From the NCBI RefSeq assembly GCF_963921235.1, contig NC_086107.1, positions 109,432,001-109,496,000 of the forward strand: a stretch of 64,000 nt of DNA, in the 5' to 3' direction. This document shows positions 11,076 through 60,109 of this stretch, one piece after another (position 1 is the stretch's first letter; each line of letters begins with the position of its first letter). The notes under the pieces were generated by a model. The model saw only the letters and a list, made by a program, of their open reading frames with translations. It was not told the DNA's origin and did no database searches. Made by a program: the position numbers and the translations under genes. Source of the DNA: Mobula hypostoma. Its lineage: Eukaryota.

Positions 11076-12426
11076 GCCCAGTGGCTAACGTGACTCTGTG
11101 AAATTGATTAGTTAAGACACTTCCCCCATTCCTTTTTCCCTCTTACACCTTCTCTCCTTACCTGCCCATCACCTCCCTCTGGTGCTCCTCCCCATTCCCT
11201 TTCTTCCATGGTCTTCTACCCTCTCCAATCAGATTCCCTCTTCTCCAGCCCTTTATCTCTTTCACTAATCAACTTCCCAGCCCTTTACTTCACCCACTCC
11301 CGTCTCCCGGTTTCACCTATCACCTCTTACCTCTCACCTCGTACTTTTCCCTCTCCTCCCCCCACCTTCTTGCTCTGACCTCATCTTTTTTCCAGTCCTG
11401 AAACATGAATGGGGAATGGTGAAGGTGGTGGTGGGGGTGGGGGTGGGGGTGGGGGGGGGAAACGGTGGTGGGCAATTACCAGAAGTTCAAAAAAATCGAT
11501 GTCGGAGGCTACCCAGATGGAATATAAGGTGTTGCTTCCCCAACCTCATGGTAGTAGAGGCGGCCATGGACGCATATTAATCGCCGTGGTTTCTTCCAGA
11601 AATAACAGTCGCATGTCAGAACATGAGATCTCATCCCTCCACACCCGCAACCACCATTACTTTATCATTTCCTGTCAGTCACCTTATGTACAGACACTCC
11701 TGTGCCCAGCATCACCTTATGGAGAAGAGAGTAGACCATAGGAGAAAGGGAAGGAGGAGGGGAATCAGGGGGAGGTAATAGGCAGGTGAAAAGAGATAAG
11801 AGACCAGAATGGAGAATAGAAGAGAGGAGGGGGAGGGGAAAATCTTCCTTTACCTGATTGAAGGGAAAAAAATTGATATTCATACCATCAGGTTGGAGGG
11901 TACACAGACAGAATTATGGTGTTGCTCCTCCATCCTGAGAGTGGCCTCATCTTGGCCCAAGAGGAGCCTATAGACCATCTTTTTTTTATTATTGTGTTTT
12001 TATTTTGTGCTGCATCAGATCCGGAGTAACAATGATCTTATTCTCATTTACACTTGTGTACTGGAAATGACATGAAACAATCTTGAATCTCGAAAATGGA
12101 GGTGGACACCAGGCCCTCCCAACCTGCCCCTGACTGGCTGATCTGTGCTGTCTGAGCTCTCTGATTGTGAGAGTTCACCTGTCCTTTCAGGTGTTTATCC
12201 CTCTCCACCTGAAATGTGGAGGCTGATACATTAGGGACATCATGGATGAAAGAAAAATGGGGGATTATGGGCTGTGTAGGACGGAAGGGTTAGATGGATA
12301 AAAGGTTAAAAGGGCAGCACAGCATTGTAGGCCGAAAGGCCTGCACTGTGTGGTACTGTTCTATTTTAAATAAATCCAATATTCTGGAATCCCCCACCCT
12401 CTGAGGCAGAGACATTCAGTACCCAC

Positions 12427-12519
12427 TTGAGAGAAAAATCTCTGCACAACGCGCATATAAAAGAACTGTGCCGGGTATCGGCTCGATTGTGAGAACGCGA
12501 CAAGTGGGCAGGCGGCCAT
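12427..12519 (-). CDS. Putative first coding exon of an unidentified gene (presequence-like peptide MAACPLVAFSQSSRYPAQFFYMRVVQRFFSQ)
   Basis: ATG at 12519 lies inside a YY1-like AAATGGCCGCC. 31 codons with no acidic residues, then CAA|GTGGGT donor. Directly downstream of a CpG promoter. Confidence 0.5.
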
Positions 12520-12830
12520 TTGGTAGCGCGGTGAATCGATTGGGCTCGCGCTCTTTGACCGCGTGGGCTTTCAAGTGCGCATGCGTTTGATAGAACTTCT
12601 GATTGGGCTTCTGACGCGCGGACGGCTCGCGCTCTTTGGCCGCGCGGGCTTTCAAGCGCGTGTGTGTATCGCCTCGGTGGGGGCCCGGCTTGCCACTCCT
12701 GCGCTCGGCGTATGTCTGTGTGTGTGTGTGTGTGTGTGTGGTTACTAACGCGATTCAGTTAAAAACATTTACTAATACGGCTCCAACGTCGTTCTTGCTC
12801 TGCGCATACGTAACACGGATAGCGTCTTGT
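12505..12830 (-). promoter_or_regulatory. CpG-rich housekeeping-type promoter
   Basis: NRF1-like TGCGCATGCG at 12576-12585. CCAAT boxes on minus at 12538-12543 and 12601-12606. YY1-like motif at about 12511-12521. 37-bp direct repeat (12543-12579 and 12624-12660). Dense unmutated CpGs. Confidence 0.7.
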
Positions 12831-13098
12831 AACTATGTCTTGTTTGTGACACTAGTGAAATTACCAGCCCCCTTATAGATCTGAATAAGGTCCCCCCTCA
12901 CTCTTCTAAACGTCAGGGAATACAGTCGTAACGGAACGGTGGAGGGGGTTCATTCATCTTGAGGTGCGATGTCTTGCACAGTAAAGGTGGGTTTTCCTAG
13001 GTGTGTGGACGTGGATGAAGCACGGGCAGAAATATCCTGGGAAGGTGGTGTCAGGACAGGTACCCTACTACCCCATTGGATTGGGGACGTACGCAAGC

Positions 13099-14133
13099 TC
13101 ATTGGCGTGAGATTTCAGCCCCCGAGACAGTTACGATGCATTGCTGGTGCCCATCGCCCCGAGTGCCAGCTCTTCCCTTTATCCCGCACCGCACGTCCTG
13201 GATAACCAGCCTGAGCCTGGTATCAAAGGTCTTCTGCAGGTACTTGTACAAGATGGGCATGGCACACGTGCTCAGGTAGGCCAGCAGTTCGCAGGCGCCC
13301 CGCAGGAAGTGAAGCCGGTTGACGAAGCGGCCCCCGCCCTCGGCCCGCGTGACGAAGTGGGCGGTGCTCACCAGCAGCGCCAGGTTGTAGGGCAGCCAGA
13401 GGGCGAACTGCACCAGGACCGTGGCCAGCAGCAGCCTCTGGGCCGGGGGCTCCGGCCGGTGGGGCCCCGTCAGCCACAGCGGCCGGCGTTTCCGCAGGAT
13501 GAGGCCAAGCGCGCAGCCCACGCCCACGGCGGGGACCAGGAAGCCGGTGAAGAACATGATGGCGTCCCCCAGCTCCTTGGTCTGCAGCTGCGAGCAGTCA
13601 TGGGTCTGGTCAGAGATTTTGTTGCAGATGTAGAAGAGGAGGGAGGAGAAGCTAGCCAGCGCCGCTCCCCCCCAGACGAAGGTGCAGACGTGCTTGGTAT
13701 TGTAGACGCTGGACATGTAGGTGTGGGGCAAGGCTTGCTCGATGAAGCAGTCCAGGCTCAGCAACGTGGCCGAGTAGATGCTCACCAGAGCCGCCATGTT
13801 GAAGAGGATGAAGGAGCCCATGCAGACCTCTCGGCCGAAAGCCCACACCGGCCACAGCAGGTGGTCGGGGCTGAGGAGTTGCAGGAAGGCCACCAGGTTA
13901 AGTATCAAGCCAGCCAGTGCCATGTTGGTGAAGTAGACGTCCGGCATGTTGATGGACAGTTTGTGGCGAAGGTTGACGACGAGGACGAGGACGTTGAAGG
14001 TGAGGCCCAGGGGGAAGCAGACCAGAAGGTAGGCCGTCGAGGCCACGGACAGGAGCAGGCCAACGTTCTGGCAGAGGTCGTCTCCACACAGCGTGCCATT
14101 AGGTCCAAGGTTCCCCTGAATGCAGCTCCACAT
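13099..14133 (-). CDS. GPR146: GPR146-family class A orphan GPCR, intact 344-aa ORF
   Basis: Family motifs MWSC, MPDVYFTNMA, TYMSSVYNTKHVC, GGAALASFSSLLFYIC and seven hydrophobic segments. Candidate acceptor ttttaatcttgcttgcag ends at 14240. It may be a paralog rather than the 1:1 ortholog. Confidence 0.92.
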   Translation of the reverse strand: MWSCIQGNLGPNGTLCGDDLCQNVGLLLSVASTAYLLVCFPLGLTFNVLVLVVNLRHKLSINMPDVYFTNMALAGLILNLVAFLQLLSPDHLLWPVWAFGREVCMGSFILFNMAALVSIYSATLLSLDCFIEQALPHTYMSSVYNTKHVCTFVWGGAALASFSSLLFYICNKISDQTHDCSQLQTKELGDAIMFFTGFLVPAVGVGCALGLILRKRRPLWLTGPHRPEPPAQRLLLATVLVQFALWLPYNLALLVSTAHFVTRAEGGGRFVNRLHFLRGACELLAYLSTCAMPILYKYLQKTFDTRLRLVIQDVRCGIKGRAGTRGDGHQQCIVTVSGAEISRQ

Positions 14134-14266
14134 CGCAGCGAGGATCAGGCCAGAGCCGTCAGCAGGATGAGGCTGGAAGCCTCATCAAACGGAAGCGGAG
14201 CTTGTGGAGTGGAAACCATCAGTCATGTTGTCCAGAAATCTGCAAGCAAGATTAAAATATATAACT

Positions 14267-14477
14267 CAAACAACAGGAATTCTGCAGATGCTGGAAATTC
14301 AAGCAACACACATCAAAGTTGCTGGTGAACGCAGCAGGCCAGGCAGCATCTGTAGGAAGAGGTGCAGTCGACGTTTCAGGCCGAGACCCTTCGTCAGGAC
14401 CTGAAACGTCAACTGCACCTCTTCCTACAGATGCTGCCTGGCCTGCTGCGTTCACCAGCAACTTTGATGTGTGTTGC
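14267..14477. mobile_element. Fold-back Penelope pLTR mini-element (80-bp inverted arms) with 15-bp TSD
   Basis: Arms 14301-14380 and 14400-14479 match at 79/80 with a 19-nt loop. TTAAAATATATAACT at 14252-14266 and 14478-14492. Confidence 0.92.
14366..14401 (-). ncRNA. Minimal type-I hammerhead ribozyme motif
   Basis: GGUC-CUGACGA-AGGGUCUCGGCCU-GAAA-CGUC-GACU: stem I, conserved core, stem II and the palindromic ACGU in place of stem III. Confidence 0.75.
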
Positions 14478-14779
14478 TTAAAATATATAACTAGCTGGTT
14501 TTAAGATTCAAGATTCAAATGTATTTAATCACATGTGCTGTATGTGTTGGCGTTAACAACCTACACGACTGGTGGTGTTCTAGGGGCAGGCAACAAGTGT
14601 CGCCACACATTCCGACGCCAACATAGCATGCCCACGATGCCTGGCCAAACATCTGCAAAGCAAGCGCCATTTCCCCCTCCCGCGCACGTACACACGCACT
14701 CCTCCAACCCGAGGTCAGGCTGGCTTTAGCCTCCAGTGAACTCAGACTCAAGCTCACCGATATTGGGCCTTCAAATCAC

Positions 14780-15290
14780 TTTTACCGCACTTCAGTGGGT
14801 CGTCTCTAGCGCACAGAAGATCATCGGGACACAGCTCCCAGCCCTGGAGGACACCTACAGCTCTCACTGCCTAAGGAAAGCTACAAGCATCTGTAAGGAC
14901 AATACACACCCATGCAATCATCTGTTTGAACTTCTTCCATCTGGCAGACGTTATAAGATTTTCTATGCCCGCACTTCCAGACTGAAAAATAGCTTTTTCC
15001 CCAGAGCTACAATTGCTCTGAACCAATCGATCAAGCATCATCAATAAATTTGTTATATTGCTACTTTAATACGGTTTTATGGCTGTCATGCATCTGAGTT
15101 GTGCTTTTGTACTGCTGGACATCGCTTGTACTGGCTGGTTACTTGATTTTATTTATTGTTTATTTATTTTATTTGTTGTTTTATAGCATTGAGTACGAGA
15201 GTTGCAAACTCATTTTCGCTGTATTGGTGCATGACAAATTGTACTATGCAATGACAAGTAAAGATATTTCAATTTCAATTTCAATTCAAT
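14780..15290 (+). mobile_element. Rex1/Babar-like LINE 3' fragment with (ATTTCA)n tail
   Basis: AQKIIGTQLPALEDTY..HPCNHLFELLPSGRRY..RLKNSFFPRA. Confidence 0.8.
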
Positions 15291-15974
15291 TTCCCAGAGA
15301 TTCGCAGATTTGAGCTTCGGCCTTGGCTTCTGGACTTCCGATTCGACCCTCGGCATCAACCCAGGACCCGCCGATCATCGAGTACTAAGACCTTGAACTC
15401 TGGACTCGCTGATAATAGACCCCAAACACAAGGCCTCAAACTGCGGTCTCACTGATTTGCGAACCCGGGGTGGGAGTGGGGGGCCGGGGTCGTTGGACCT
15501 CGCTCCTCCTGCCCACATGGAAGTCCAACTCCAGGACCCAACAGCTCACAGTCCCTGGGGTGGTCACGAGCCCTCGTCCACGCCAGTCTGCCGGCCTGGT
15601 ATCCGACCACATCACTAGTCTTTGAACGCGGAGACTCCAACCTCTCCTCTGCTTCCCCCCCAAATCCCTGTCCCATTTGACCATGTTTGGTCCATATCCC
15701 TCTTAAACCTGTTCTATTCATGTACCTGTTCCAAGTCCCTTTTAAATGTGGTTAGTGTGGCTGCCGCGACCACTTCCTCCAGCAGCTCGTTCTGTATACT
15801 GCCTACCTTCTAGGTGAGAATGTTGCCCCTCAGATTCCTACTAAAATCTCTCCCATCTCAGGCAATATTCTGGTGAATCTCCTCTGCACCCTCTCTAGTA
15901 CCATACTCTCCTCATCTTTCCAATAGTGAGGAGACCAGACCTACCCACAATCGATTTGGCACAATATTGTTAGG

Positions 15975-17555
15975 AGTTTTATAGAACATAAAACAGTACA
16001 GCACAGCGAACAGGCTGTTCTGAACATAATGTTGTGCTGAGCTAGCTAAAAAGTAAATCAAAATACCCAAACATTAATCCCTGCTACCTACACAATGTTC
16101 ATATCCCTCCACCTTCCTTACATCCATGTACCTATTCAAATGTCTCTCAGAAGCCTCTATTGTATTTGGCTCTACCACCACACCAGGCAGTGCATTCCAG
16201 GCATCCACCACTCTGAGTAAAAGATTTACCCCTCACATCCCCTTTGAACCTACCCCCTCTCACCTTCAATGCGTGCCCTCTGGTATTAGACATTTTTACA
16301 CTGAGAAACAGATACTTGCTGCTAACTTATCTACAACTCTCATGAACTTATAAACCTCTATCAGATCTCCCCCCGGCCTCTGACACTCCAGAGAAAGAAA
16401 ACCCAAGTTTATCCAGCCACTCATGCCCTCTAAACCAGGCAACATCCTGGTAAAACTCTTCTACACCCTCTCCAAAGCCTCAACATCCTTCCTGTAGTGG
16501 GGTGACCAGAACTGTATGCAATACCCCAGATACGGCCTAACCAGAATTTTATAAAGATGCAACATAACCTCTTGAGGCTCAAGATTAATCCCTCGACTAA
16601 TACAGCTGTTACGTACCCCGTAACTGGGTTGCCAAACCAGCAGAAATGGATCACTCAGTTGGAGTCTGGAGTACTAGAACTAAGAAAGTTTTATTAAAGA
16701 AACAAGCAACACAGTAATCGAAAGGGTAATAAATGCAACAGTTCAGTGATGATAAACACACATGTGCACAGCATTAAGATGACAGCATCAATCAAGCTCT
16801 ATCGTTATCTAGGGGTTAAATGACCAAATTCAAAATGACTCAAAGTTCAGTCCAGTTTGTAGTTCAGTTCGCAGTAATCGTTGCCATGGCGATGGACAAC
16901 GTGGGGGAAGAGAGACATAGAATAGGAACAACTGATCATTCAGCACAGCTTCACTCACAGACCAGCGAGATGGCTCACAAACAGCTTTTGGGCGGGTCCT
17001 TGGTGATGTCACCTGAGGTCACCGACTGTGACCCCTCCTCCAGATGCGGTCGATCCTCTGCAGTGAACCCGGCACCCAGGCAATGGCGGACACACACCGG
17101 GTTCCCGCTGATCGTACCTTTCCACCCTGGGCGTTGTCCGGTACTTCTCACCACTCGTGAGAGGCGCACCGCTTCCAGGGTCTCGTTACCTCGGGTGGCG
17201 TGTGTGTCTGTCTTAGCGAACCTGTCCCTTTTTATCCCCCTGCTGGGGTATCGCCTGTCCATCACTTCAAACAGTTCAGGGCTCAAAGGGGGGAGCCGCT
17301 CCAGACAGCTCTTCCTCCCACATCCCTTCATTACACATCTCCAGACGCTGCTCCATTGTTCCTTATCTCTCCTTCCCCTGAGGGCAGGTGGCAGACCAAC
17401 TGCTGATGCCACTGATGCTAGCCCAGGCCAGCAAACATCTTAATTTTATGTGTATTCTCGTAACACAGCAAGCATTCCATAAGCCTTATTAACCACCTTG
17501 TTGGCCAGTGCATCCACTTTCAAGGAACTATGAGCTTGGATCCCAAAATCTCTTT
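15975..17555 (-). mobile_element. Degenerate CR1 3' fragment interrupted by a solo LTR
   Basis: RT C-terminal remnants on both sides of 16607-17465. Confidence 0.75.
16607..17465 (-). mobile_element. Solo LTR (859 bp)
   Basis: Termini TGTTACG...CGTAACA. 4-bp TSD CAGC at 16603-16606 and 17466-17469. AATAAA on the minus strand near 16690. Confidence 0.88.
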
Positions 17556-17989
17556 GCTCATGGTATGTAGCAAATACTAATTTCAACAGCAGCCAGTCTT
17601 CACACCTGGATGTGGGTTGTAGGTTGAATTTAAAATGCAGCCCTGAACAATTTCTTTCCCCCCTGAAGCTGTACACTGGGGTTGATTGCAAACCGGACAA
17701 TGATGATTAACATTACTTTGGGTGTCTGGAGTGTGTGTGTGAAGAAGGAGTTGTTTGAAAATTAAGCATTGTCACTGTAGAGTTGTTCTGCTACCTTTGA
17801 TCTTCAGCATATGAAATGTCATTGGGTCGAGCAGGCCTCTTCTTCCAAGAGTGCCTCAGTATGATGACTGTTGCTCGTTTTTGTTGAATAAACACTTACC
17901 TTTATCAACCAGCTTCAGTGTCTCTCTGGTGACTTTGTTCACGTCATGATAAACATCGTGGTGGAAATAACTCGGAAAATGTGTAGCTG

Positions 17990-18675
17990 AGATGGTTGAG
18001 TGGTTCTCTAATCTTGGCGATCCATTTGCAAACGTTTTGTCAACATATGAGGAGGCATCATCAGCACACTGTTCACTTGTGGTGTGTCCTCCAAATTTTG
18101 GTCACACATAAACCAACAGCAACGTTGAGGAGAGTACTCTACAGATCTAAAGAACAAACCAAGCTATTGGAAAAGACCAATGTAGTCCATTAAATCCAGT
18201 GTGGGGACTGCAGTAAATGTTATGGCAGCCACAATGATCCATGAACATCAACTGGCTGTAAAGTGACATGACCAGCCCTCCCTAGTCTCTACCCATGGAG
18301 ATCTGGAGGGACACAAATTCAACTGGGCATCAGTGAAAGTCATGGCACAAGCTAACATGCGGCATGCAGGAGAATTCCTGGAGGTGTGGTTTTCCGCTGT
18401 TAATCCTATAAACAGATGTAGGCCTCGACCCCATTTATAAGCCAATGCGGACAAAATTCCAGACAACGCACACACAGTTTGCCACACAAACGATCAGCGA
18501 CAAGAACCCCTCCCTACACCACAATTGGATTTCCATAATGATGGCCAATCAGCTGATTGATAATTATTCAGAGGACACACCACAATTAACAGCTCACTGA
18601 TGATGTCTCCTCATGTGGTGATGAATCATTTGAAAGTGGATTGCCAGAATCGGAGAACAACTCAACCCAACCAAA
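17990..18675 (+). mobile_element. Second Penelope-like family: GIY-YIG remnant between inverted pLTRs with decayed hammerheads
   Basis: KTNVV..IQCGDCSKCY..SLVSTH.D.EGHKFNW..FLE.WFS remnant. CTGATGA..GAA cores at about 18597 (+) and about 18030-18064 (-). Confidence 0.7.
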
Positions 18676-19265
18676 CATCATGGTGTTCCTGCTCTGTACT
18701 ATGTTCTCTGTGTACTACAGGTGTGACCTAGGCATGGGTTAGCGAGGTAGTCATCAGCCTGGTGAGGAATCTAGAAACCTCAGCTAGTGTTCTTGAGATG
18801 TTAACATTGAATCCCAGCATGTTAGTTCACTTTAGGAGATGATTATATCAGTAAAAGTGACCCTGAAACTTCAGAGTTATCACAGAAACTCACCACTGAT
18901 TCACTAATGTTACCCGGGGTGTAGAACTCTCCCGTCCTTACCTAGTCCGACCTATATGTGAAGCAGATCCACAGGAACGTGGTTGGCTTGTAACTCCTCT
19001 TGTAAATAGTCTGGACAGCCACAGTCGGAGGGCAATGTGGGATGAGGTTTGGCCTTCCCAGTAACACTCACATCCTGTAAAGGAATTTACAAAAATGTGT
19101 GAAAAGGTGCTCAGTCTCTGTGTGACAACTCATCCTGCATGGAGTTCCAGTACTCAAGTGCAAAGGAGAATGAAGTAATTGTTACTCCAGATCTAATGCA
19201 GCACAGAAAAAAACACGGTAAGGTAAAGTACACGGTAATAAAGAAACACAATAAATATAAATACA

Positions 19266-19865
19266 TAGTCATAGTCATACTTTATTGATCCCAGGGGAAA
19301 TTGGTTTTCGTTACAGTTGCACCATAAATAATAAATAGTAATAAAACCATAAATAGTTAAATAGTAATATGTAAATTATGCCAGGAAATAAGTCCAGGAC
19401 CAGCCTATTGACTCGGGGTGTCTGACCCTCCAAGGGAGGAGTTGTAAAGTTTGATGGCCACAGGCAGGAATGACTTCCTATGACGCTCTGTGCTGCATCT
19501 CGGTGGAATGAGTCTCTGGCTGAATGTACTCCTGTGCCCAACCAGTCCATTATGTAGTGGATGGGAGACATTGTCCAAGATGGCATGCAACTTGGACAGC
19601 ATCCTCTTTTCAGACACCACCGTGAGAGAGTCCAGTTCCATCCCCACAACATCACTGGCCTTACGAATGAGTTTGTTGATTCTGTTGGTGTCTGCTACCC
19701 TCAGCCTGCTGCCCCAGCACACAACAGCAAACATGATAGCACTGGCCACCACAGACTCGTAGAACATCCTCAGCATCGTCCGGCAGATGTTAAAAGACCT
19801 CAGTCTCCTCAGGAAATGGAGACGGCTCTGACCCTTCTTGTAGACAGCCTCAGTGTTCTTTGAGT
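19266..19865 (-). mobile_element. Rex1/Babar-like LINE 3' fragment
   Basis: MLRMFYESVVASAIMFAVVCWG..SHPLH..RKSFLPVAIKLYN and a (TATGAC)n tail. Confidence 0.9.
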
Positions 19866-20044
19866 CTATGGATTCTATAGATTGATTCTATGTCCATGAC
19901 GTGACGCCAGGCACAGGCTTACGAGAGGCCTATTCAAGAGTTTGATAACAGTGAAGTAGAAGAACGCAGATAAAATGCTGGAGGAACTCAACAGTCAGAT
20001 AGCATCTCTGGAGGAAAATGAACAGCCGACGTTTTATTTTATTT

Positions 20045-20318
20045 TATTGAGATATTGGAATCGGCCCTTCCGGCCCTTCGAGCTGCATCACCCAGCAACC
20101 CCCATTTTACCCCCAGCCTAAACTTGGGACAATTGACAATGACCAACTAACCTACTAACCAGCACGTCTTTGGACTGTGGGAGGAAACCGGAACATCGGG
20201 AGGAAGCCCACGCAATCACACGGAGAGCATACAAACTCCTTACAGGCAGTCGTGGGAATTGAACGCGGGTCGATAGGACTGTAAAGCCTTATGCTATCCA
20301 CTATGCCACCATGCCCCC
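20045..20318 (-). mobile_element. tRNA-headed V-SINE (HE1-like). Further copies at about 22672-22965(+), 26093-26365(-), 32651-32918(+), 33255-33505(+), 35590-35800(+), 39670-39925(-), 41780-42065(-), 46470-47580(-, split by a CR1) and 62830-63090(+)
   Basis: Shared central block gttctccccgtgacc..gtgggtttcctccgggtgctccggtttcctcccacagtccaaagac, a tRNA-like A/B-box head and a CR1-like tail (gaagggcctgtt..gctgta). Confidence 0.8.
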
Positions 20319-22061
20319 ACCCCTTTAGGTCAAGGCCCTTCATCAGGACTGGAAAGTGGGGGGGGAATGAATTCAGAATTAGGAAGTGGGGAGGCAGGGG
20401 AAGGAATACCATCTGGGAGGTGATTGGCGGAAGAGATGAAGGGCTGATGAAGAAGGGATCTGACAGAAGAGAAAGCTGTCCTTCAGCCTGGTTGTCACAT
20501 GCTTTCAAACTTTCATATCTTCTGCCCAATGGGGAGGGCAGAAGGGAGAAATTCCAGGGGTGGGAGCGGTCCACGACTGCAGTACGTTTGCTGCTTTTCC
20601 AAGGGAAGTTGGGATAAGCACATGGTTAGGTGGGGCAGTTATGGTTATGGTTATGGCAGTGATGGTTAGTTATGGTCCAGGCGCAGGTCAATGGGAACAG
20701 GCAGAATAGCAGTTCATCGCAGCTCACACAAAACGCTGGAGGAACTGAGCAGGTCAGGCATGGAAGGGCATAAACAGTCGAGACCCTTCATCGGGACTGG
20801 AAAGGAAAGAGGAAGACACCAGAATCAAAAGATGTTTGGGGGGAAGAGAAGGAGGCCAAGCTAGAAGGTGATGGGTGAATCCAGGTGGGTGGGAGTAACA
20901 GTTCGGCGCAGACTAGGTTGGCTGTGGCACTCTCTGAATCCATGACTCTGGTTCAAAGTTCAAAGTACAAACGTGTACATTTGTTATCAAAGTACGTATA
21001 CATTATACAACCTTGAGATCCGTCTCCTAACAGGCAGCCACAAGAAACCTGAAAGAACCCATTAAAAAAAGACCAACAAACACCCAATGCGCAGAGAGGA
21101 GAAAAACACCGATCGTGCGAACAATAAAAGCAAGCAGCAGCATTCTGAACGAACTTGAGTCCAGAGACACGAAGCCCAGAGCAGGCCCACAGCCTCAGCT
21201 TCAGTGCAACGAAGAGCCGAGCAAACGTCGCTGGCAGTGACCCTCACCCCTAGTCCAGACAGGGATGGTCAAATATTAATGGCGATTTCAGAAGTTTCTG
21301 TGGAAAAGGAGGGCCACTAAGAGCTGGAAAGGGAGCGACTGACTTTTCAGTTTTGAAGTTGGTGATTGGTTATACTAACATTTCAACATTTTATGAATTG
21401 TATCCATGATTCGGAACTCATGATGCAAGAGTGTCCGTATTTGACGATGTCAGGGGGGGCTCAATTAAACTTTACTGAACAGATCTGACAATCCACACCA
21501 ACAAGAACCAACGTGAATAGAGAGAGGGCATGGTGAATGGACCAGGAATGGGCAGGTGGTTGGTGAAGAAAGCATAGGTTAGAAAAGAGGAACATCTCTT
21601 CATGTCGTTATAATCTGGATCGTTGCTTCAAGAAAGGAATTGAATAGATCCTGGAGGTAGGTGGAAGGAGAGAGAATGAGTGGATGAAATACCGAAACGT
21701 GAACAGACTCTGACACTGACAAACAGCCGGCAGCCTATTTTGTCCACACCAGTCAAAACCAGGTGATCTGGCTCTGCAATACTCTACACACAAAATGCTG
21801 GAGGAACGCAGCATTTCGAAAAAGAGTACAGTTAACCTGTCCTGCCGAAGGGTTTTGGCCCGAAACATCAACTGTGTTCTTTTCCTACATGCTACCTGGC
21901 CTGCTGAGTTCCTCCAGTTTAACAAACATGGGAGATTCTGCAAATGTGGGAAATCTGGAGTAACACACACAAAATGTTGGAGGAACTCAGCAGGTCAGGC
22001 AGCATCTATGGAGAGGAAAAAAGAGTTGATGTTTCAGGCCGACACCCTTAAATAGCTGTGC

Positions 22062-38520: not shown

Positions 38521-40297
38521 TTTTAACATACGCACATTATAGCGTGTTCCTTCTCTCGCACGTTCATATAGAACCATCAAGTATAGAGATCATCGGAATC
38601 AGATTTATTATCACGAATCGATATAACGTGAAATGCGTCCTGCAGCATCAAGACAGCGTAAAGTTTCTACTATTTGCAAATATAGCGCAAAACAAAAGGG
38701 ACAACTCCGTGGAATCTGATGGCAGAGCGGGTTAAAAAGCCGTTTCTGAATCCATTGAGTGTGTGTGCCTGCAGGCTCCGGTACCCCCTTCCTGATGGTA
38801 GGAATGAGAAGAGGGCACGTCCCGGGCGGCGAGGGTCCATAGTGATGGATGCTGCTTCGCTGAGGCACCGCCTCTTGTAAGTGTCCTTGATGGTGGGGAG
38901 GGTTGTGCCCGTGGTGAAAGCTGGCGGAGTTTACAACCCTCCACAGCCTCCTGTGATCCCGTGCGTTGGCACTTCAGTGCCCGGCGGTGATGCCTACAGC
39001 CGGACCGCTCTCCGCCGTACATCGGCAGCAATTTTGTACAAACCTTTTGGAGACTTCATCAGAGAAAGGTTTTACCGTCTCTTTGATCGGAATCAGATTC
39101 AGGTTTATTAACACTGACAAATGTTGTGAATTTTATTGTTTAATAGCAGTACAGAACAATAAATAAGAAAGTATATGATTTACAATAAGAATACATTAAT
39201 CCCTTGATAGTTTACAACCTCGGCAGGTTTTCCGTCCCTCCGTACCCGGCGCTTGTACAACCGGCCAGAAGGCTCTCCCGGTACAAATGTAGGAATTTGC
39301 TCCAGACTTTGGTGGCATGCCCAATCTTCTCAAACTCTCAGTGAAATCTAGCTGCCATGCCTTCCGTGATGGAGATGGCTGAGTTTTTACAGTGCTCCGC
39401 GATCCCGCACATTGGCCCCCTCCGTACCAGACGGCGGTGCCACTGGTTCGAATGCTCTCCCGGTGAAATCTGCAGAAATTCGCTAGAGCATTGGCGGTTC
39501 TTCATGAAATCTAGCTGCCATGCCTGCTTTGTAATTGGATCAATACGCTGGACCCAGGGTAGATCTTCAGAGACCCAGGAACCTGAAGCTGCTCACCTTG
39601 AAGATGACTGATGTACGTTCTCGCGATTTCCCCCTTTATCTCCACCTCCAGAGCCCTTCACAGATTTTACTCCCTGAGAACTGACAGCCCCTCCCCGGAT
39701 GACCAGTGAGCCTGGCCACTGTAAAGCGGTAGTCATGTCTGTTAAACCCGATAAAGTTTTCTGAATCGCTACCAACTTGCACATCTTTGGGATGTGCGAG
39801 GAATCCGGAACGCGCGGGGGAATTCCACGCAGTCACAGGGGTGGGGGGGGGGGGGGGGTGGAACGTGCAAACTCCACGCAGACGGGAGGATCGAACCCGG
39901 GTCCCTGGAGTTGTGAGGTGTTGGCTCCACCGGTTGAATCAGAACAGGTTTAATATCACCGACTTGTCATGAAATCTGTTATTTTGCGGAAGAAGTCATT
40001 GCAATACATAGAATATATTATGAATCTCAAGTGATGCTCTGTCTTAATTTGGAGAAGATTAACTTTTGAACTTATGTTTGATTTTGAGAAAGGATGGGGT
40101 TCATTTGCTCGTTATTATCATTTGGGTTAATTGATAGATTTCCTCCACGATCTAACTGTAAATTTTTGGTACATTTTTTTTCTTGCTGGCGGTTTGATGC
40201 TTATCATTAGAAGCTTTTTTGTATGACGCATGGCTCCGGGGTTGAACACCTAATGCGTTTTTTTTCTCACTTTTCCTTGCTCAGTAGGGTTTTTTTT

Positions 40298-40660
40298 CAA
40301 GCAACACATAAAAGTTGCTGGTGAACGCAGCAGGCCAGGCAGCATCTCTAGGAAGAGGTGCAGTCGACGTTTCAGGCCGAGACCCTTCATCAGGACTAAC
40401 TGAAGGAAGGGCTAGTAAGAGATTTGAAAGTGGGAGGGGGAGGGGAGATCCAAAATGATAGGAGAAGACAGGAGGGGGAGGGATGGAGCCAAGAGCTGGA
40501 CAATCTGTTACTAGCCCTTCTTTCAGTTAGTCCTGACGAAGGATCTCGGCCTGAAACGTCGACTGTACCTCTTCCTAGAGATGCTGCCTGGCCTGCTGCG
40601 TTCACCAGCAACTTTTATGTGTGTTGCTTGAAATTCCAGCATCTGCAGATTTCCTTGTGT
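40298..40660. mobile_element. Fold-back Penelope pLTR mini-element with two hammerhead motifs (- 40362-40397; + 40529-40564)
   Basis: Arms of about 128 bp (40297-40424 and 40502-40631). Flanked by TAGGG(T)8C at 40285 and TAGGG(T)10C at 40661. Confidence 0.9.
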
Positions 40661-53318: not shown

Positions 53319-53822
53319 GTAAGATCAAGAATTTCATCTCTTCAGCATCTAAAAAAACATTGGTCATTATCCCATTGCTGTTTATGGAGTCTTGCGGTGC
53401 TGAAACGAGTTCCTGGATTACAACAGAGACTTGACTCAAGAAAAGAACCTTCTGTCTGGGCTCCACCGGAGTGCTTTGGCTTGTCCTGGAAGGGGACACT
53501 AAGGGTGCTACAGAAATGCAGGCCATCCTTGAGTAAAGAAGGGGCTGGGCGACTGCTTTAGCCCATGTGCACTTGGCACCGCAGAGCCTGATCCCAGCCA
53601 CGCCTCGCGCGTATCTGATTCGGCCCATTGTGTCTAGTGGCCTGGAACATGAGTACATGTGTACATGCATGTGAGAGCATGTTTGTTCAGTACTTGCCTG
53701 AATCTTACAAGGTTTCGACCTGAAACATCAACAATTTCTTCCTTCTACAGACGCTGCTCGGCCTGCTGATTTCCTGAAGTTTGCTTATTGTCCAGATTTC
53801 AGCATCTGCAGTCAGCTGCCCT

Positions 53823-54170: not shown

Positions 54171-54202
<32 letters not shown>

Positions 54203-54335
54203 CTTTGTGTATCTGTGTGTGTATCTGTGTGTGTTTTTGTGTGTGTGTGTATGTGTGTGTGTGTGTGTCTGTGTGTGCCTGTGTGTGTGTGTATATGAGT
54301 GTGTGTGTATGTGTATGTGTATGTGTGTGTCTGTC

Positions 54336-54366
<31 letters not shown>

Positions 54367-54378
54367 ATCAGTGTGTGT

Positions 54379-55706: not shown

Positions 55707-57902
55707 GTAAGACCATAAGACAGGCGAACAGAATTAGGCCATTCAGCCCATCGAGTCTGCTGCTCCATTTAATTGTGGCTGATTTGGTTTTCTTCTCAAC
55801 CCCACTCTCCTGCCTTTGACACCCTTAATAATCAAGAACCTAGCGACTTCCGCTTTAAATATACCTAATGACTTGGCCTCCGCACCCGTCTGGCAATGAA
55901 TTCCGCTGATTCACAACCCCTCTGGCGAAAGAAATCCCTCCTCATCTCTGTTCTAAAGGGACCCCCTTTCGAGGCTGTTCCAGCGGGTCCAGGTCTTGCT
56001 GCGAGCCATGACAGCCTTCCTCACTGTCCACTACACCCCCAGTCTTGGAGTCACCCGCAAATTTGCTGATCCATTAACCACATTGTCATCCAGATCGTTG
56101 ATATCGATGTCAAACCACAAAGGACCTGGCACCGATTCCTGTGGCACACCACCAGCCACTGGCCTCCAATCAGAGAGGGAACCGTCTACCGCCACTCTCT
56201 GGCTCCTCCCACAAAGCCAATGTCTAATCCAATTTACCACCTCGTGGTTGAAAGTGTGAATGGGAGGATTAGCAAACTTGCAGAGGATACCAAGAGTTGT
56301 GGATAGCGGATAAGACCCACAAAGAACACAGCACGATATAGATCAGTTGCAGACGTGGGCAGAGAAATGGCAGCTGAAGTTTAACCCAGATGAGTTGCAC
56401 CTCGGCAGGGCAAATGCAAGGAGACAGAAAGGGCAAGTTTTGGTGAGCAGAGCGACCTCGGGATCCAAGTTCGCAGCTCCTTGAAAGTGGCTACACAGGT
56501 CGATAAGGCTGATGGAACGCTCGCTTTTATTAGTCGAGGCATTGAGTTCAAAGGTCAGGAAGTTATGTTGCAACTTTATAAAACTCTGGTTAGGCCACAT
56601 CTGGAGTATTGCATAGAGTTCTGTTCACCCCACTGTAGGAAGGATGTTGAGGCTTTGGAGAGGGTGCAGAAGAGGTTTACAAGGATGCTACCTGATTTAG
56701 AGAACTTAGAATTCTCCTTCGCCTTGTCTACTAGAGCAAGCTTACGCCTTCTTTTAGCACTCCTGATTTCTTTCTTAAGTGTTCTCTTGCATTTCTTATA
56801 CTCCATAAGCACCTCATTTGTTCCTACCTGCCTATACCTGCTATATGCCATTTTTTTTCTTAACCAGGGCCTCAATATCTCTTGAAAACCAAGGTTCTCT
56901 AAACCTATTATCTCTATCTTTTATTCTGGCAGGCACATACTTGCTTTGTGCTCTCAAACTTTCACTTTTGAAGGTCTCCCACTTACGAAGTACACCTTTG
57001 CCAGAAAACAATCTGTCCCAATCCACACTTGCCAGATCATTTCTGATACTGTCAAAATTGGCCTTTCTCCAATTTAGAATCTCCGGCCACAGACCAGACC
57101 TATCTCTTTCCATATTTACTTTGAAACTAATGGCATTGTGATCACTGGTTGCAAGGTGATCCCCAACACAAACTTCTGTCACCTGCCCTGTCTCATTCCC
57201 TAATAGCAGATCAAGAATCACACATTATCTCATCGGGACTTCCATGTACTGATTAAGGAAACTTTCCTGAGCTCATTTGACAAACTCTATTCCATCTAGT
57301 CCTTTTACAGTATGGGAGTCCCAGTCTATATGTGGAAAGTTAAAATCACCTACTATGACAACCCTATGTTTCTTTCAACAGTCTGTCATCTCTTTATAAA
57401 TTTGTTCCTCTTAATCCCTCAGACTGTTGTGTGGTCTGTAATATAGCACCATTAACATGGTCATACCTTTCTTATTTCTCAGTTCTACCCATAACGCCTC
57501 GCTAGATGAGTTCTACAGTCTGTACTGACTGAGCACTACCATGACATTTTCCCTGACTAGTAACCCCCTATCTTCCTTTAATCCTTCTCACTCCATCGTG
57601 TCAAAGACAACGGAACCCTGGAATATTGAGCTGCCAATCCTGCCCCTCCTGCGACCAAATCTCACTAATGGCTACAGTGTCATAATTCCAGGTGTTGAAT
57701 TGGAACACCTGGAGCTCATCCGCCTTTCCTACGATACTACCTGCATTGAAATATACGCAGCTCAGAACACTGGTCTCACCATGCTCGACCTTTTGATTTC
57801 TGACTTTGTCTGAGGTCTTACCAACATCTGCCTCCACAACCTCTCCACTATCTGTTCTGGCCCTCTGTCGCCCGTCCCCCTGCAATTCTAGTTTACTAGT
57901 TT

Positions 57903-60109
57903 GCTGTTGTAGTCTGGCGTACTGACCTCTACCTTGCCGAGGCACAGCGACAACTCGCGGATACCTCCTCTTATTTACCCCTCGATCGTGACCCCACTAA
58001 GGAGCACCAGGCCATTGTCTCCCACACTATCAACGACTTTATCCGCTCAGGGGATCTCCCTTCCACTGCTACCAACCTTATAGTTCCCACACCCCGCACT
58101 TCCCGTTTCTACCTCCTACCCAAGATCCACAAACCTGCCTGTCCTGGCCGACCTATTGTCTCAGCTTGCTCCTGCCCCACCGAACTCGTTTCTGCATACC
58201 TCGACACTGTTTTATCACCCCTTGTTCAATCCCTTCCGACCTATGTTCGTGACACTTCTCACGCTCTTAAACTTTTCGATGATTTTAAGTTCCCTGGCCC
58301 CCACCGCTTTATTTTCACCTTGGATGTCCAGTCCTTATATACTTCCATCCCCCATCAGGAAGGTCTCAAAGCTCTACGCTTCTTTTTGGATTCCAGACCT
58401 AATCAGTTCCCCTCTACCACCACTCTGCTCCCTCTAGCAGAATTAGTCCTTACTCTTAATAATTTCTCCTTTTGCTCCTCCCATTTCCTCCAAACTAAAG
58501 GTGTAGCTATGGGCACCCGTATGGGTCCTAGCTATGCCTGCCTTTTTGTTGGCTTTGTGGAACAATCTATGTTCCGTGCCTATTCTGGTATCTGTCCCCC
58601 ACTTTTCCTTCGCTACATCGACGACTGCATTTGCGCTGCTTCCTGCACGCATGCAGAACTCGTTAACTTTATTAACTTTGCCTCCAACTTTCACCCTGCC
58701 CTCAAGTTTACCTGGTCCATTTCTGACACCTCCCTCCCCTTTCTAGATCTTTCTGTCTCTGTCTCTGGAGACAGCTTATCCACTGATGTCTACTATAAGC
58801 CTACTGACTCTCACAACTATCTGGACTATTCCTCTTCTCACCCTGTCTCTTGCAAAAACGCCATCCCCTTCTCGCAATTCCTCCGTCTCCGCCGCATCTG
58901 CTCTCAGGATGAGGCTTTTCATTCTAGGACGAGGGAGATGTCTTCATTTTTTAAAGAAAGGGGCTTCCCTTCCTCCACTATCAACTCTGCTCTTAAACGC
59001 ATCTCCCCCATTTCACGTACATCTGCTCTCACTCCATCCTCCCACCACCCCACTAGGAATAGGGTTCCCCTGGTCCTCACCTACCACCCCACCAGCCTCC
59101 GGGTCCAACATATTATTCTCCGTAACTTCCGCCACCTCCAACGGGATCCCACCACTAAGCATATCTTTCCCTCCCCGCCTCTCTCTGCATTCCGCAGGGA
59201 TCGCTCCCTACACAACTCCCTTGTCCATTCGTCCCCCCCATCCCTCCCCACTGATCTCCCTCCTGGCACTTATCCGTGTAAGCGGAACAAGTGCTACACA
59301 TGCCCTTACACTTCCTCACTTACCACCATTCAGGGCCCCAAACAGTCCTTCCAGGTGAGGCATCACTTCACCTGTGAGTCGACTGGGGTGATATACTGCG
59401 TCCGGTGCTCCCGATGTGGCCTTTTATATATTGGTGAGACCCGACGCAGACTGGGAGACCGCTTTGCTGAACATCTACGCTCTGTCCGCCAGAGAAAGCA
59501 GGATCTCCCAGTGGCCACATATTTTAATTCCACATCCCATTCCCATTCTGACATGTCTATCCACGGCCTCCTCTACTGTAAAGATGAAGCCACACTCAGG
59601 TTGGAGGAACAACACCTTATATTCCGTCTGGGTAGCCTCCAACCTGATGGCATGAACATTGACTTCTCTAACTTCCGCTAGGCCCCACCTCCCCCTCGTA
59701 CCCCAGCTGTTACTCATTTTTATGCACACATTCTTTCTCTCACTCTCCTTTTTCTCCCTCTGTCCCTCTGAATATACCTCTTGCCCATCCTCTGGGTCAC
59801 CCCCCCCCCCGTCTTTCTTCCCGGACCTCCTGTCCCATGATCCTCTCGTATCCCCTTCTGCCTATCACCTGTCCAGCTCTCGGCTCCATCCCTCCACCTC
59901 CTGTCTTCTCCTATCATTTTGCATCTCCCCCTCCCCCTCCAGCTTTCAAATCCCTTACTCACTCTTCCTTCAGTTAGTCCTGACGAAGGGTCTCGGCCTG
60001 AAACGTCGACTGCGCCTCTTCCTATAGATGCTGCCTGGCCTGCTGCGTTCACCAGCAACTTTGATGTATGTTGCTTGAATTTCCAGCATCTGCAGAATTC
60101 CTGTTGTTT
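57903..60109 (+). mobile_element. Young 5'-truncated Neptune-type Penelope-like element: open RT + Cys linker + GIY-YIG (57903-59681, about 592 codons) and 3' pLTR
   Basis: FYLLPKIHKP, DVQSLYTSIPH, GVAMGT, RYIDD, PCKRNKCYTC and VIYCVRCSRCGLLYIGET..RFAEH. Flanking duplication (GTTT)ACTAGTTT at 57891-57902 and 60106-60117. Confidence 0.95.
59976..60011 (+). ncRNA. Minimal type-I hammerhead ribozyme motif in the Penelope pLTR
   Basis: AGUC-CUGACGA-AGGGUCUCGGCCU-GAAA-CGUC^GACU, with predicted cleavage after 60007. Confidence 0.8.

What the first reader, a model, noticed from the sequence alone, without database searches (positions are those of the whole stretch)
14240..14492. 80-bp hairpin with a sense-strand hammerhead sits 27 nt upstream of the GPR146-like splice acceptor
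Seen: the predicted intron ends at 14240 and the insertion starts at 14267. The pre-mRNA would contain a 79/80-bp stem with a 19-nt loop and an intact hammerhead motif (14366-14401) on the transcribed strand. The 3' half of the ribozyme is complementary to the other arm, so the hairpin and ribozyme folds are mutually exclusive. Inference: a recent, possibly polymorphic insertion that could alter branch-point use, attract ADAR or Drosha/Dicer, or cleave the intron.
Basis: partly seen in the sequence, partly recalled or inferred. Interest (0 to 1): 0.7.

Follow-up and report, generated by a model that had tools for sequence, protein, structure and literature searches.

The report
Retrotransposon tail folded back in intron
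The hairpin is the tail end of a very abundant Penelope-like jumping gene that landed, with a back-to-back inverted copy of itself, in an intron of a ray's GPR146 gene; this is an ordinary way for such elements to insert, and its built-in ribozyme motif is very unlikely to cut.

Summary
Window 14267-14477 is a 211-bp insert between perfect 15-bp target-site duplications. It forms a 79/80-bp stem with a 19-nt loop (z = -24) and carries a hammerhead-like core on the gene's strand, 27 nt upstream of an AG acceptor.

It is not a special structure. It is the 3' end of a Penelope-like retroelement (PLE). The same sequence ends an RT + GIY-YIG ORF at window 57900-60107. The insert shows the published PLE insertion signature:
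- 5' truncation with an adjacent inverted 5'-truncated copy;
- a 34-nt "tail" on one arm only;
- a minimal hammerhead without helix III.

The genome holds at least 62,000 linear copies of this end and thousands of such hairpins. Of these, 1,842 turn inside the hammerhead core and 34 have exactly this junction, drawn from several subfamilies.

- Cleavage is implausible. The motif needs a dimer partner, has U at 11.1, gets no Rfam hit, and its fold costs about +34 kcal/mol against the hairpin.
- Both insert junctions occur in DNA contigs of a second organism (about 2% diverged), so it is not private or demonstrably polymorphic.
- One contig, from a run only guessed to be RNA, stops exactly at 14239, so the acceptor appears to be used.

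This scan noted a similar head-to-head PLE pair before, in a rotifer. Interest is low.

The parts
14252..14266 (.). Target-site duplication, copy 1 (TTAAAATATATAACT)
   Evidence: Perfect 15-nt direct repeat with 14478-14492
14267..14300 (-). 34-nt PLE 'tail' (GAATTTCCAGCATCTGCAGAATTCCTGTTGTTTG on the minus strand). It is present on this arm only and abuts the duplication next to the acceptor.
   Evidence: The same tail ends the RT/EN-bearing copy at about 60107. The tail sits on one arm only in 34 of 34 same-junction copies.
14301..14380 (-). PLE-sense arm: the 3'-terminal 80 nt of the element upstream of the tail. It holds the GAAAC-GUC half of the hammerhead motif and its helix I 3' strand.
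   Evidence: The sense segment (window 14270-14400) is 97.7% identical over 131 nt to the 3' end of the window's RT-bearing copy.
14381..14399 (-). 19-nt loop, the continuation of the sense arm through the hammerhead core (TCCTGACGAAGGGTCTCGG on the minus strand). The 5' truncation point of the sense copy lies at its end.
14400..14477 (+). Inverted 5'-truncated second copy of the same PLE end, without tail. It is sense on the plus strand and forms the 5' arm of the hairpin in the GPR146 pre-mRNA.
   Evidence: 79 of 80 complementary to 14301-14380, counting the TT at 14478-14479.
14478..14492 (.). Target-site duplication, copy 2
14366..14401 (-). PLE-type minimal hammerhead motif: helix I GGUC/GACU, CUGACGA, bulged A, helix II GGGU(CUCG)GCCU, GAAA, C15.2-G16.2, U16.1, C17. 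There is no helix III.
   Evidence: Sequence reading. No Rfam hit.
13099..14239 (-). GPR146-like coding exon: 106-nt 5'UTR part at 14134-14239, CDS 13099-14133 (344 aa). The acceptor AG is at 14240-14241.
   Evidence: 7tm_1, E 7e-19; 95% identity to a stingray GPR146; contig match ends at 14239
57900..60107 (+). 5'-truncated copy of the parent Penelope-like element. It has a 593-aa open frame with RT and C-terminal GIY-YIG endonuclease (57900-59681), then the 3' region with the hammerhead motif (59980-60007) and the tail.
40296..40655 (.). A second hairpin insertion of the same family. The inverted arms each hold a hammerhead motif (40366-40393 minus strand, 40533-40560 plus strand), the spacer is about 125 bp, the tail is on the right arm only, and the flanking duplication reads TAGGGTTTTTTTT.

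Best explanation
The 211-bp insert is a heavily 5'-truncated insertion of a Penelope-like retroelement (PLE).

Shown:
- One segment (minus strand, 14399 to 14267) is the last 133 nt of the element: hammerhead core, 3' region and 34-nt tail.
- The other segment (plus strand, 14400 to 14477) is a second, tail-less copy of the same 3' region, joined head-to-head.
- The whole insert is flanked by a 15-bp duplication of the target.

Inferred mechanism: the PLE protein cuts both target strands with a stagger, which gives the duplication. It then primes a cDNA of the element's 3' end on each strand, one from the outer start site (with tail) and one from the inner start site (without tail). Alternatively, one cDNA snaps back on itself. 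The two cDNA ends are then joined with little or no homology. The hairpin is therefore a by-product of integration, not a selected structure. The hammerhead-like motif is simply the PLE's own terminal-repeat ribozyme motif carried along.

Consequences for the GPR146 pre-mRNA (inferred): the insert would fold into an 80-bp intronic duplex. The ribozyme motif is not expected to cleave, for three reasons: a minimal hammerhead needs a second copy to build helix III, it has U at 11.1, and its 3' half is buried in the stem. Splicing at the AG 27 nt downstream appears to go on.
For: Parent element:
- The same 3' sequence, hammerhead motif and tail end a 593-aa frame with RVT_1 (E 2.6e-6) followed by GIY-YIG (E 5.3e-4) at window 57900-60107.
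- The sense segment of the insert is 97.7% identical to that 3' end over 131 nt.

Published PLE insertion signature, each feature seen here:
- high 5' truncation;
[quoted passage not shown] - hammerhead motif in the terminal repeats (PMC8557442, passages).
- Minimal hammerheads without helix III occur in PLE repeats, and also as pairs on opposite strands 100-700 bp apart (PMC4209133, parts 1-2).
- A purified PLE protein cleaves and extends both strands and starts reverse transcription at two adjacent sites that delimit the tail (PMC11167929, passages).

Genome-wide counts (exact patterns):
- The linear form TTCAGTTAGTCCTGACGAAGG occurs 62,039 times.
- Hairpins that turn within 30 nt between GACGTTTCAGG and CCTGAAACGTC occur at 1,842 sites, with many different junctions.
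- Hairpins turning elsewhere: 156, 813 and 771 sites.
- This exact junction occurs 34 times.

The 34 same-junction copies:
- All 34 have different flanks.
- The tail is on one arm only in 34 of 34. It sits on the hammerhead-sense arm in 11 and on the other arm in 22-23.
- An exact duplication of 10-15 bp was found in 22 of 34.
- They carry subfamily variants that are mirrored in both arms. This points to independent events rather than one master copy.

Ribozyme:
- No Rfam hammerhead hit.
- The hammerhead-compatible fold costs +33.7 kcal/mol.

Locus history and splicing:
- Both junctions are present in contigs of organism B.
- A contig match stops exactly at 14239 in X15.
Against: - The Pfam hits of the parent ORF lie just below the curated cut-offs: 27.7 against 29.6 bits, and 20.7 against 22.6 bits. 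No solved structure matched. The RT was not placed in a PLE clade by a tree.
- No independent read or contig was shown to span the whole hairpin. Contigs of the other runs break inside the repeat, so the centre of this particular copy rests on the assembly.
- Dual-strand priming and snap-back of a single cDNA cannot be told apart from sequence.
- X15 is only guessed to be RNA, and the splice evidence is one contig in one run.
- The contig of organism D stops matching at 14251/14252, the edge of the duplication. This could be an empty site, so the insertion may be absent in a more distant relative. That would fit an insertion of moderate age rather than contradict the reading.
Confidence: 0.9

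Rival explanations
1. The hairpin is not made anew at each insertion. It is a small non-autonomous element, a hairpin 'SINE' of the PLE. Its RNA (arm-loop-arm-tail) is copied as a unit by the PLE reverse transcriptase, and this locus is one offspring of a master hairpin.
For: - 34 copies share exactly this junction.
- L001 (this locus) and L002 are 99.5% identical over 211 nt.
- The hairpin RNA would keep the 3' tail, which the PLE enzyme is reported to use (PMC11167929).
Against: - The 34 copies belong to several PLE subfamilies whose diagnostic variants appear in both arms and also in linear copies.
- The tail sits on either arm: 11 against 22-23 copies.
- 1,842 hairpins turning in the same 30 nt have many different junctions.
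- At another position one junction that shares a few bases between its two sides also recurs, in about 10 of the first 50 sites listed. Repeated junctions therefore arise without a master copy.
Confidence: 0.08
2. The insert is a consequential regulatory lesion or device of GPR146: the ribozyme cleaves the intron, or the 80-bp duplex recruits ADAR, Drosha or Dicer, or it displaces the branch point and changes splicing.
For: - An 80-bp near-perfect duplex would form in the pre-mRNA, on the sense strand, 27 nt from the AG.
- Only one yUnAy-like branch candidate (TTAAT, about 13 nt from the AG) remains in the unchanged 27 nt (my reading).
Against: - The motif is a minimal hammerhead. It is reported inactive as a monomer and weak even as a dimer (PMC4209133).
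- It has U at 11.1 and is sequestered at a cost of +33.7 kcal/mol.
- A contig match ends exactly at the acceptor, 14239.
- The insertion is kept in a second organism about 2% diverged.
- Thousands of equivalent hairpins exist, about one fragment of this family per 5 kb in this window. Nothing singles out this copy.
Confidence: 0.05
3. It is a foldback or MITE-type DNA transposon: terminal inverted repeats that make up nearly the whole element, moved by a transposase.
For: The structure is almost wholly palindromic and is flanked by a direct repeat.
Against: - The ends are not symmetrical: a 34-nt tail lies on one side only.
- Duplication length varies from 7 to 15 bp among copies.
- The outer end of the tail-less arm varies from copy to copy, while the tail end is fixed.
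- The arms are the 3' end of an RT/GIY-YIG retroelement.
- The internal junction varies freely.
Confidence: 0.02

Closest known systems
Endonuclease-positive Penelope-like elements (Penelope/Poseidon, Neptune, Nematis clades) and their complex insertions (Evgen'ev & Arkhipova 2005, recalled; Craig et al. 2021, PMC8557442; Mob DNA 2024, PMC11167929)
   Same: - One ORF with RT followed by GIY-YIG.
- Hammerhead motif in the terminal region.
- Strong 5' truncation.
- An inverted 5'-truncated copy abutting the insertion.
- A 30-40-bp tail at one end only.
- Target duplications of variable length.
   Different: - This copy is an extreme case. It has no coding part at all: 133 nt of sense copy plus 78 nt of inverted copy, so the whole insert is one hairpin.
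- The clade of the RT was not determined here.
- The family's size in this genome (at least 62,000 ends) is a count made here, not taken from a paper.
Minimal hammerhead ribozymes of metazoan PLEs (Cervera & de la Pena 2014, PMC4209133)
   Same: - Type-I layout with an open helix I of 4-5 bp.
- CUGANGA and GAAA boxes.
[quoted passage not shown]
- No helix III or loop 3, with a palindromic 15.2-16.2 (ACGU). Activity is therefore expected only as a dimer.
- Also reported as paired motifs on opposite strands.
   Different: - Helix II is short here: 4 bp including two G.U pairs.
- Position 11.1 is U, giving G.U or A-U instead of the 'highly conserved G10.1-C11.1'. U is the majority state in this genome (84 of the first 100 listed copies).
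- No cleavage test exists for this family.
Canonical hammerhead ribozymes (Rfam hammerhead families; intronic HH9/HH10 of amniotes, recalled)
   Same: The conserved core nucleotides and the GUC cleavage triplet. The motif sits in an intron on the sense strand, as the amniote intronic hammerheads do.
   Different: - No helix III.
- No Rfam match, even at E <= 10.
- No conservation as a single-copy element. It is a repeat fragment.
L1 'twin priming' 5' inversions (Ostertag & Kazazian 2001, recalled)
   Same: A retroelement insertion with an inverted 5' part, explained by priming on both target strands.
   Different: - In twin priming the inverted part comes from a more 5' region of the RNA. Here both arms are the same 3' region, a full duplication.
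- There is no poly(A).
- The enzyme is a GIY-YIG PLE, not an L1.
Animal non-LTR retrozymes (Cervera & de la Pena 2020, recalled; bioRxiv 10.64898/2026.07.22.740005, passages)
   Same: Short non-coding PLE-related sequences with type-I hammerheads.
   Different: Retrozymes are head-to-tail tandem repeats that allow dimeric hammerheads and circular RNAs. This is a single head-to-head inverted pair with only one full core.

Membership tests
Penelope-like element (EN+) insertion | The parent element encodes RT followed by a C-terminal GIY-YIG endonuclease in one ORF | tested here: met
   - Window 57900-59681(+): RVT_1 at residues 84-249 (E 2.6e-6, 27.7 bits, cut-off 29.6). GIY-YIG at residues 496-570 (E 5.3e-4, 20.7 bits, cut-off 22.6).
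- Both hits are slightly under Pfam's curated cut-offs. YIDD and GVIY...LLYIGET motifs and a C..C...HH pattern ahead of the endonuclease are visible in the translation (my reading).
- 74 of 74 scored genomic matches are 98-100% identical, and 71 of 74 have no stop.
Penelope-like element (EN+) insertion | The insert is sequence-continuous with the 3' end of that element | tested here: met
   97.7% identity over 131 nt (sense segment) and 94.0% over 83 nt (inverted arm) to window 59700-60107
Penelope-like element (EN+) insertion | A 30-40-bp tail present at one end only | tested here: met
   The 34-nt tail is at 14267-14300 only. It is one-sided in 34 of 34 same-junction copies.
Penelope-like element (EN+) insertion | 5' truncation with an adjacent inverted 5'-truncated copy | tested here: met
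   Arms 14301-14380 and 14400-14479. Thousands of analogous inverted pairs occur in the genome.
Penelope-like element (EN+) insertion | The RT belongs to the PLE/TERT-related clade | not tested
   No tree was built. No solved structure matched.
Minimal (PLE-type) hammerhead motif | CUGANGA and GAAA boxes, helix I, helix II, an extra nucleotide between 9 and 10.1, palindromic 15.2-16.2, no loop 3 | tested here: met
   GGUC-CUGACGA-A-GGGU(CUCG)GCCU-GAAA-C-G-U-C-GACU, read against the description in PMC4209133
Minimal (PLE-type) hammerhead motif | G10.1-C11.1 pair, 'highly conserved' in PMC4209133 | tested here: not met
   Position 11.1 is U (CCTGAAAC). 84 of the first 100 listed genomic copies have T and 16 have C.
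Hammerhead ribozyme (Rfam families; three-helix junction, self-cleaving) | Match to a curated covariance model, with helix III present | tested here: not met
   0 matches at gathering score in the window. 8 matches at E <= 10 on 14200-14540, none to a hammerhead family. There are no nucleotides between C15.2 and G16.2.
Hammerhead ribozyme (Rfam families; three-helix junction, self-cleaving) | Self-cleavage at the NUH site | not testable with these tools
   Only energetics could be computed: the hammerhead-compatible fold is 33.7 kcal/mol above the hairpin.
microRNA precursor (MIR856, mir-3926 and other models hit at E <= 10) | Score at or above the family's gathering threshold | tested here: not met
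   77 against 297 bits, 42.1 against 82 bits, and so on. Any long perfect hairpin scores against these models.
MITE / foldback DNA transposon | Symmetric terminal inverted repeats and a duplication of fixed length | tested here: not met
   One-sided tail, a variable outer end of the other arm, and duplications of 7-15 bp
Non-LTR retrozyme | Head-to-tail tandem repeats, each with a hammerhead | tested here: not met
   The arrangement is a single head-to-head pair with one complete core

The most novel reading that the evidence does not exclude
The genomic hairpins are a large natural record of how Penelope-like elements integrate. They would show that two cDNAs of the same 3' end are made on the two target strands, one from each of the two reverse-transcription start sites, which explains a tail on either arm. 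They would also show that the point where the cDNAs meet is concentrated in the hammerhead core: 1,842 turns there, against 771 just upstream and 156 further downstream. If that excess survives proper normalisation, the minimal hammerhead, which pairs as a dimer, could be the place where the two template RNAs are held together. That would give the motif a role in integration rather than in cleavage.
Probability: 0.12. Interest if true: 0.5.

Novelty: new member of a known kind. Interest (0 to 1): 0.15.

Why it matters
For the locus itself, little. It is one of thousands of fold-back insertions of a very abundant, apparently young Penelope-like element. It is shared with a related organism, and the neighbouring acceptor seems to work.

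Two practical points follow.
- Sense-strand 'hammerheads' and long perfect hairpins in introns of ray genomes, and of other PLE-rich genomes, should first be checked against PLE 3' ends before they are read as ribozyme switches or microRNA precursors.
- This genome offers thousands of dated, junction-resolved PLE insertions. One-sided tails, either orientation of the loop and joints with little shared sequence could be used to test the dual-strand priming model that so far rests on one in vitro study.

Tried and rejected
- **Rfam.** The whole window at gathering score gave 0 matches. The region at E <= 10 gave only microRNA/sRNA hairpin models far below their thresholds. These were rejected as generic hairpin matches.
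- **Solved structures** for the PLE ORF: none.
- **Earlier notes of this scan.** Nothing for this genome. The word search returned only a rotifer PLE note and an unrelated bacterial one.
- **Sequencing runs.** No RNA holder is listed on record. X5 and X15 are only guessed to be RNA.
  - Depth over 14004-14671 is dominated by other copies of the repeat, so neither expression, nor A-to-G editing, nor small RNAs of this copy can be read from it.
  - No contig of the four runs was shown to bridge the whole hairpin.
- **Empty site in organism D (X11).** The contig's match stops at 14251 with 72 letters unplaced. The other side was not shown, so this stays unresolved.
- **One propagating master hairpin** behind the 34 same-junction copies. 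I considered this and rejected it, because of subfamily variants mirrored in both arms, both tail orientations and the many other junctions.
- **A hot spot of turns in the hammerhead core.** The raw counts are 1,842 against 771 and 156. The follow-up bin (813 sites) showed many asymmetric joints, so gap length does not map simply to position. Anchor conservation was not normalised. The question is left open.
- **First duplication-finding script**. It picked chance repeats for several loci and was replaced by a tail-anchored search.
- **A 3' splice site inside the element** (...CTTCAGTTAG|TCCTGA), considered as the cause of the common truncation point. There is no evidence for it and I did not pursue it.
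- **Literature.** Two searches listed no paper on PLE hairpins in rays. That is no proof that none exists.
Full report
**1. The observation**

The region was read and scanned for repeats.
- A perfect 15-bp direct repeat, TTAAAATATATAACT, lies at 14252-14266 and 14478-14492. It brackets a 211-bp insert, 14267-14477.
- Exact coordinates from a script: a 34-nt unpaired segment at 14267-14300, an arm at 14301-14380, a 19-nt loop at 14381-14399, and an arm at 14400-14479.
- The last two bases of the second arm are the first TT of the second duplication.
- The arms are 79 of 80 complementary. The one mismatch (14369/14411) is a U.G wobble in the minus-strand RNA.
- As RNA, 14240-14500(-) folds at -189.2 kcal/mol. 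Shuffles give -73.9 +/- 4.7, z = -24.3, and 0 of 200 shuffles fold as well.
- The minus strand of 14366-14401 reads GGTC CTGACGA A GGGTCTCGGCCT GAAAC GTC GACT. The stretch holds the two hammerhead boxes, a short helix II, a GUC triplet and a 4-bp helix I.

**2. The gene**

- ORF 13099-14133(-), 344 aa, is a rhodopsin-family receptor (7tm_1, E 7e-19).
- Its best relative is 'probable G-protein coupled receptor 146' of the stingray Hypanus sabinus, at 95% identity over 100% of the query. All 102 hits are GPR146-type.
- The window therefore comes from a ray related to that stingray (inference).
- On the minus strand the sequence ...TATTTTAATCTTGCTTGCAG|ATTTCTGG puts an AG at 14240-14241, 106 nt ahead of the ATG. 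The insert ends 27 nt upstream of it.

**3. What the insert is**

- The 28-nt core recurs in the window at 40366-40393(-), 40533-40560(+) and 59980-60007(+). None is expected by chance.
- The copy at 59980 is linear. It continues to the same 3' end (...GAATTTCCAGCATCTGCAGAATTCCTGTTGTTT, about 60107).
- That copy follows a 593-aa open frame (57900-59681) with a reverse-transcriptase domain (RVT_1, E 2.6e-6) followed by a GIY-YIG endonuclease domain (E 5.3e-4). Both scores are just under Pfam's curated cut-offs.
- RT plus C-terminal GIY-YIG in one ORF is the hallmark of endonuclease-positive Penelope-like elements. This rests on established knowledge, restated in the abstract of PMC8557442.
- The insert's sense segment is 97.7% identical over 131 nt to this element's 3' end. 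The other arm is 94% identical over 83 nt in the opposite orientation.

The insert thus has two parts.
- On the minus strand, the last 133 nt of a PLE: hammerhead core, 80 nt of 3' region and the 34-nt terminal piece.
- On the plus strand, a second copy of the same 80 nt without the terminal piece, joined head-to-head.

**4. Comparison with the literature**

- *Craig et al. 2021* (PMC8557442; passages seen). PLE insertions are highly 5'-truncated. [quoted passage not shown] They have 'a 30- to 40-bp extension (tail)' often present at only one end. Hammerhead motifs lie in the terminal repeats.
- *Cervera and de la Pena 2014* (PMC4209133; parts 1 and 2 of 4 read). They describe minimal hammerheads in metazoan PLE repeats.
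  - These have no helix III or loop 3, a palindromic 15.2-16.2, an extra nucleotide between 9 and 10.1, and a short helix I.
  - A single motif showed no detectable activity. Dimers and trimers showed low activity.
  - They also note pairs of motifs 100-700 bp apart on opposite strands.
- *Mob DNA 2024* (PMC11167929; passages seen).
  - Reverse transcription starts at two adjacent internal sites that delimit the 'tail'.
  - Hammerhead cleavage is not needed for insertion in vitro.

Every feature of the insert fits these descriptions. The asymmetry, with a tail on one arm and none on the other, is what two start sites used on two strands would give. That last link is my inference.

**5. Genome-wide context (window's own assembly, 3.48 Gb)**

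Exact-pattern counts:

| Pattern or form | Count |
|---|---|
| Linear form TTCAGTTAGTCCTGACGAAGG | 62,039 |
| 31-nt core | 46,104 |
| Hairpins with at most 30 nt between GACGTTTCAGG and CCTGAAACGTC | 1,842 sites, many different junctions |
| Hairpins turning further 3' | 156 and 813 sites |
| Hairpins turning just 5' of the core | 771 sites |
| This insert's exact junction | 34 |

I fetched all 34 same-junction copies and compared them.
- All 34 have different flanks.
- The tail is on one arm only in 34 of 34.
  - It lies on the hammerhead-sense arm, as here, in 11.
  - It lies on the opposite arm in 22, or 23 with a laxer tail match.
- The tail end is constant, while the outer end of the other arm varies.
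- An exact flanking duplication of 10-15 bp was found in 22 of 34, of 7-9 bp in 6, and none of at least 7 bp in 6.
- Subfamily variants appear in both arms of a copy and also in linear copies. Examples are GCACC, GCGCC and GTACC, and TACAG, TATAG and TAGAG.
- The same-junction hairpins therefore arose repeatedly.
- At another position, a junction whose two sides share a few bases likewise recurs in about 10 of the first 50 sites listed.
- 10 of 34 copies have 0 mismatches in 60 bp of arm and this copy has 1. It is not among the youngest.

The family itself looks young.
- 74 scored ORF matches, out of 247,267 first-look candidates, are 98-100% identical.
- 71 of the 74 have no stop.
- Open frames reach 1,043 aa in 11 of the 74 rows.
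- The 64-kb window alone holds about a dozen fragments of this 3' end.
- One of them is a second hairpin at 40296-40655, with its own duplication.

**6. The ribozyme question**

- No Rfam hammerhead model matches, at gathering score or at E <= 10. This is expected for a motif without helix III.
- Position 11.1 is U, so the 10.1-11.1 pair is G.U or A-U rather than the 'highly conserved' G-C of PMC4209133.
- U is the majority state in this genome: 84 of the first 100 listed copies, with 16 carrying C.
- In the hairpin, the GAAAC-GUC half and the helix I 3' strand are paired with the other arm.
- Forcing helix I, helix II and an open core raises the energy from -180.0 to -146.3 kcal/mol, that is +33.7.
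- A dimer partner would still be needed on top of that.

Self-cleavage of the intron by this copy is therefore very unlikely. This is an inference and was not tested.

**7. Age, polymorphism and splicing**

The run search listed no holder on record as RNA. Four runs were laid on 12000-22000.
- *Organism B (X6, DNA).*
  - One contig matches 12751-14287 without gaps, with 33 other letters in 1,537. It crosses the duplication/tail junction by 21 nt.
  - Another matches 14455-14629 and crosses the other junction.
  - The insertion is thus present in a second organism label about 2% diverged. 'Recent, possibly polymorphic' is not supported.
- *Organism D (X11).* A contig matches 14128-14251 and has 72 unplaced letters. 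The break is at the edge of the duplication. This may or may not be an empty site. It is unresolved.
- *X15 (same organism label as the best holder, guessed to be RNA).* A 322-letter contig matches 13967-14239 with 2 other letters and has 49 letters that lie nowhere on the stretch. The match ends exactly at the predicted exon start. This is most simply a spliced transcript, but it is one contig in one run and so weak.

Editing, small RNAs and expression level of this copy cannot be read from these data. The repeat's other copies dominate the depth there.

**8. Verdict**

The structure is real and far beyond chance. It is an ordinary product of Penelope-like element integration: a fold-back insertion of the element's 3' end, carrying the element's own minimal hammerhead motif, in the 5'-UTR intron of GPR146.

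It is a new member of a known kind. Its location near an acceptor is a coincidence in a genome with one such fragment every few kilobases.

The only aspect with some wider value is the population of thousands of junction-resolved hairpins, as a record of the PLE integration mechanism. That includes an unnormalised excess of turns in the hammerhead core.

It agrees with this reading but was not checked here.

Noticed in passing
window 57900-60107 (+); genome-wide: The parent Penelope-like element family looks very young and huge. 74 of 74 scored ORF matches are 98-100% identical, 71 of 74 have no stop, and open frames reach 1,043 aa. The first look gave 247,267 candidates, and the linear 3' junction has at least 62,039 exact copies.
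   Followed up: partly
genome-wide: Turn points of fold-back insertions seem concentrated in the hammerhead core: 1,842 sites, against 771 just upstream and 156 (813 in the next gap bin) downstream. Many joints are asymmetric and share only a few bases between the two sides. The counts are not normalised for truncation profile or anchor decay.
   Followed up: partly
34 same-junction loci L001-L004, L008, L009, L011-L038: The 34-nt tail can sit on either arm relative to the loop: 11 copies on the hammerhead-sense arm and 22-23 on the other. This looks like a 'flip/flop' of the loop. It fits either of the two cDNAs being the longer one.
   Followed up: yes
genome-wide: The majority of hammerhead cores in this family carry U at position 11.1 (CCTGAAAC, 84 of the first 100 listed) rather than C (CCCGAAAC, 16 of 100). 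This is a CpG-to-TpG type change at a base pair considered highly conserved in hammerheads, yet it marks the most abundant variant.
   Followed up: partly
window 40296-40655: A second fold-back insertion of the same family. It has a spacer of about 125 bp, a hammerhead motif on each arm, a tail on the right arm only, and the duplication TAGGGTTTTTTTT.
   Followed up: partly
window 21839-21911 (+) and 21935-22049 (-): Two diverged fragments of the same PLE 3' end (75-80% identity) lie tail-to-tail, the opposite of the head-to-head hairpins. They are probably two separate old insertions.
   Followed up: no
window 14134-14239 (-): The 106-nt 5'UTR part of the GPR146 coding exon holds an upstream ATG that opens a short frame (ATGACTGATGG...TGA, about 13 codons) ahead of the main ATG at 14133.
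   Followed up: no
window 53799-55287: A long (GT/CA)-rich microsatellite-like tract shows up as His-Thr and Cys-Val 'ORFs' of up to 491 aa in the mechanical ORF list. It is not a gene.
   Followed up: no
window 56031-57996 (-) and 60111-60476 (-): Open frames flanking the PLE copy look like fragments of another retroelement. My impression from the translations is endonuclease/RT-like pieces. They were not scanned.
   Followed up: no
window 59960-59985 (+), and all linear copies: Just upstream of the hammerhead core, the element reads like a 3' splice site: a pyrimidine-rich run followed by CAGTTAG|TCCTGA. PMC4209133 reports that in Drosophila virilis Penelope an intron ends at the 5' end of helix I. 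Whether this family also has an intron there is unknown.
   Followed up: no
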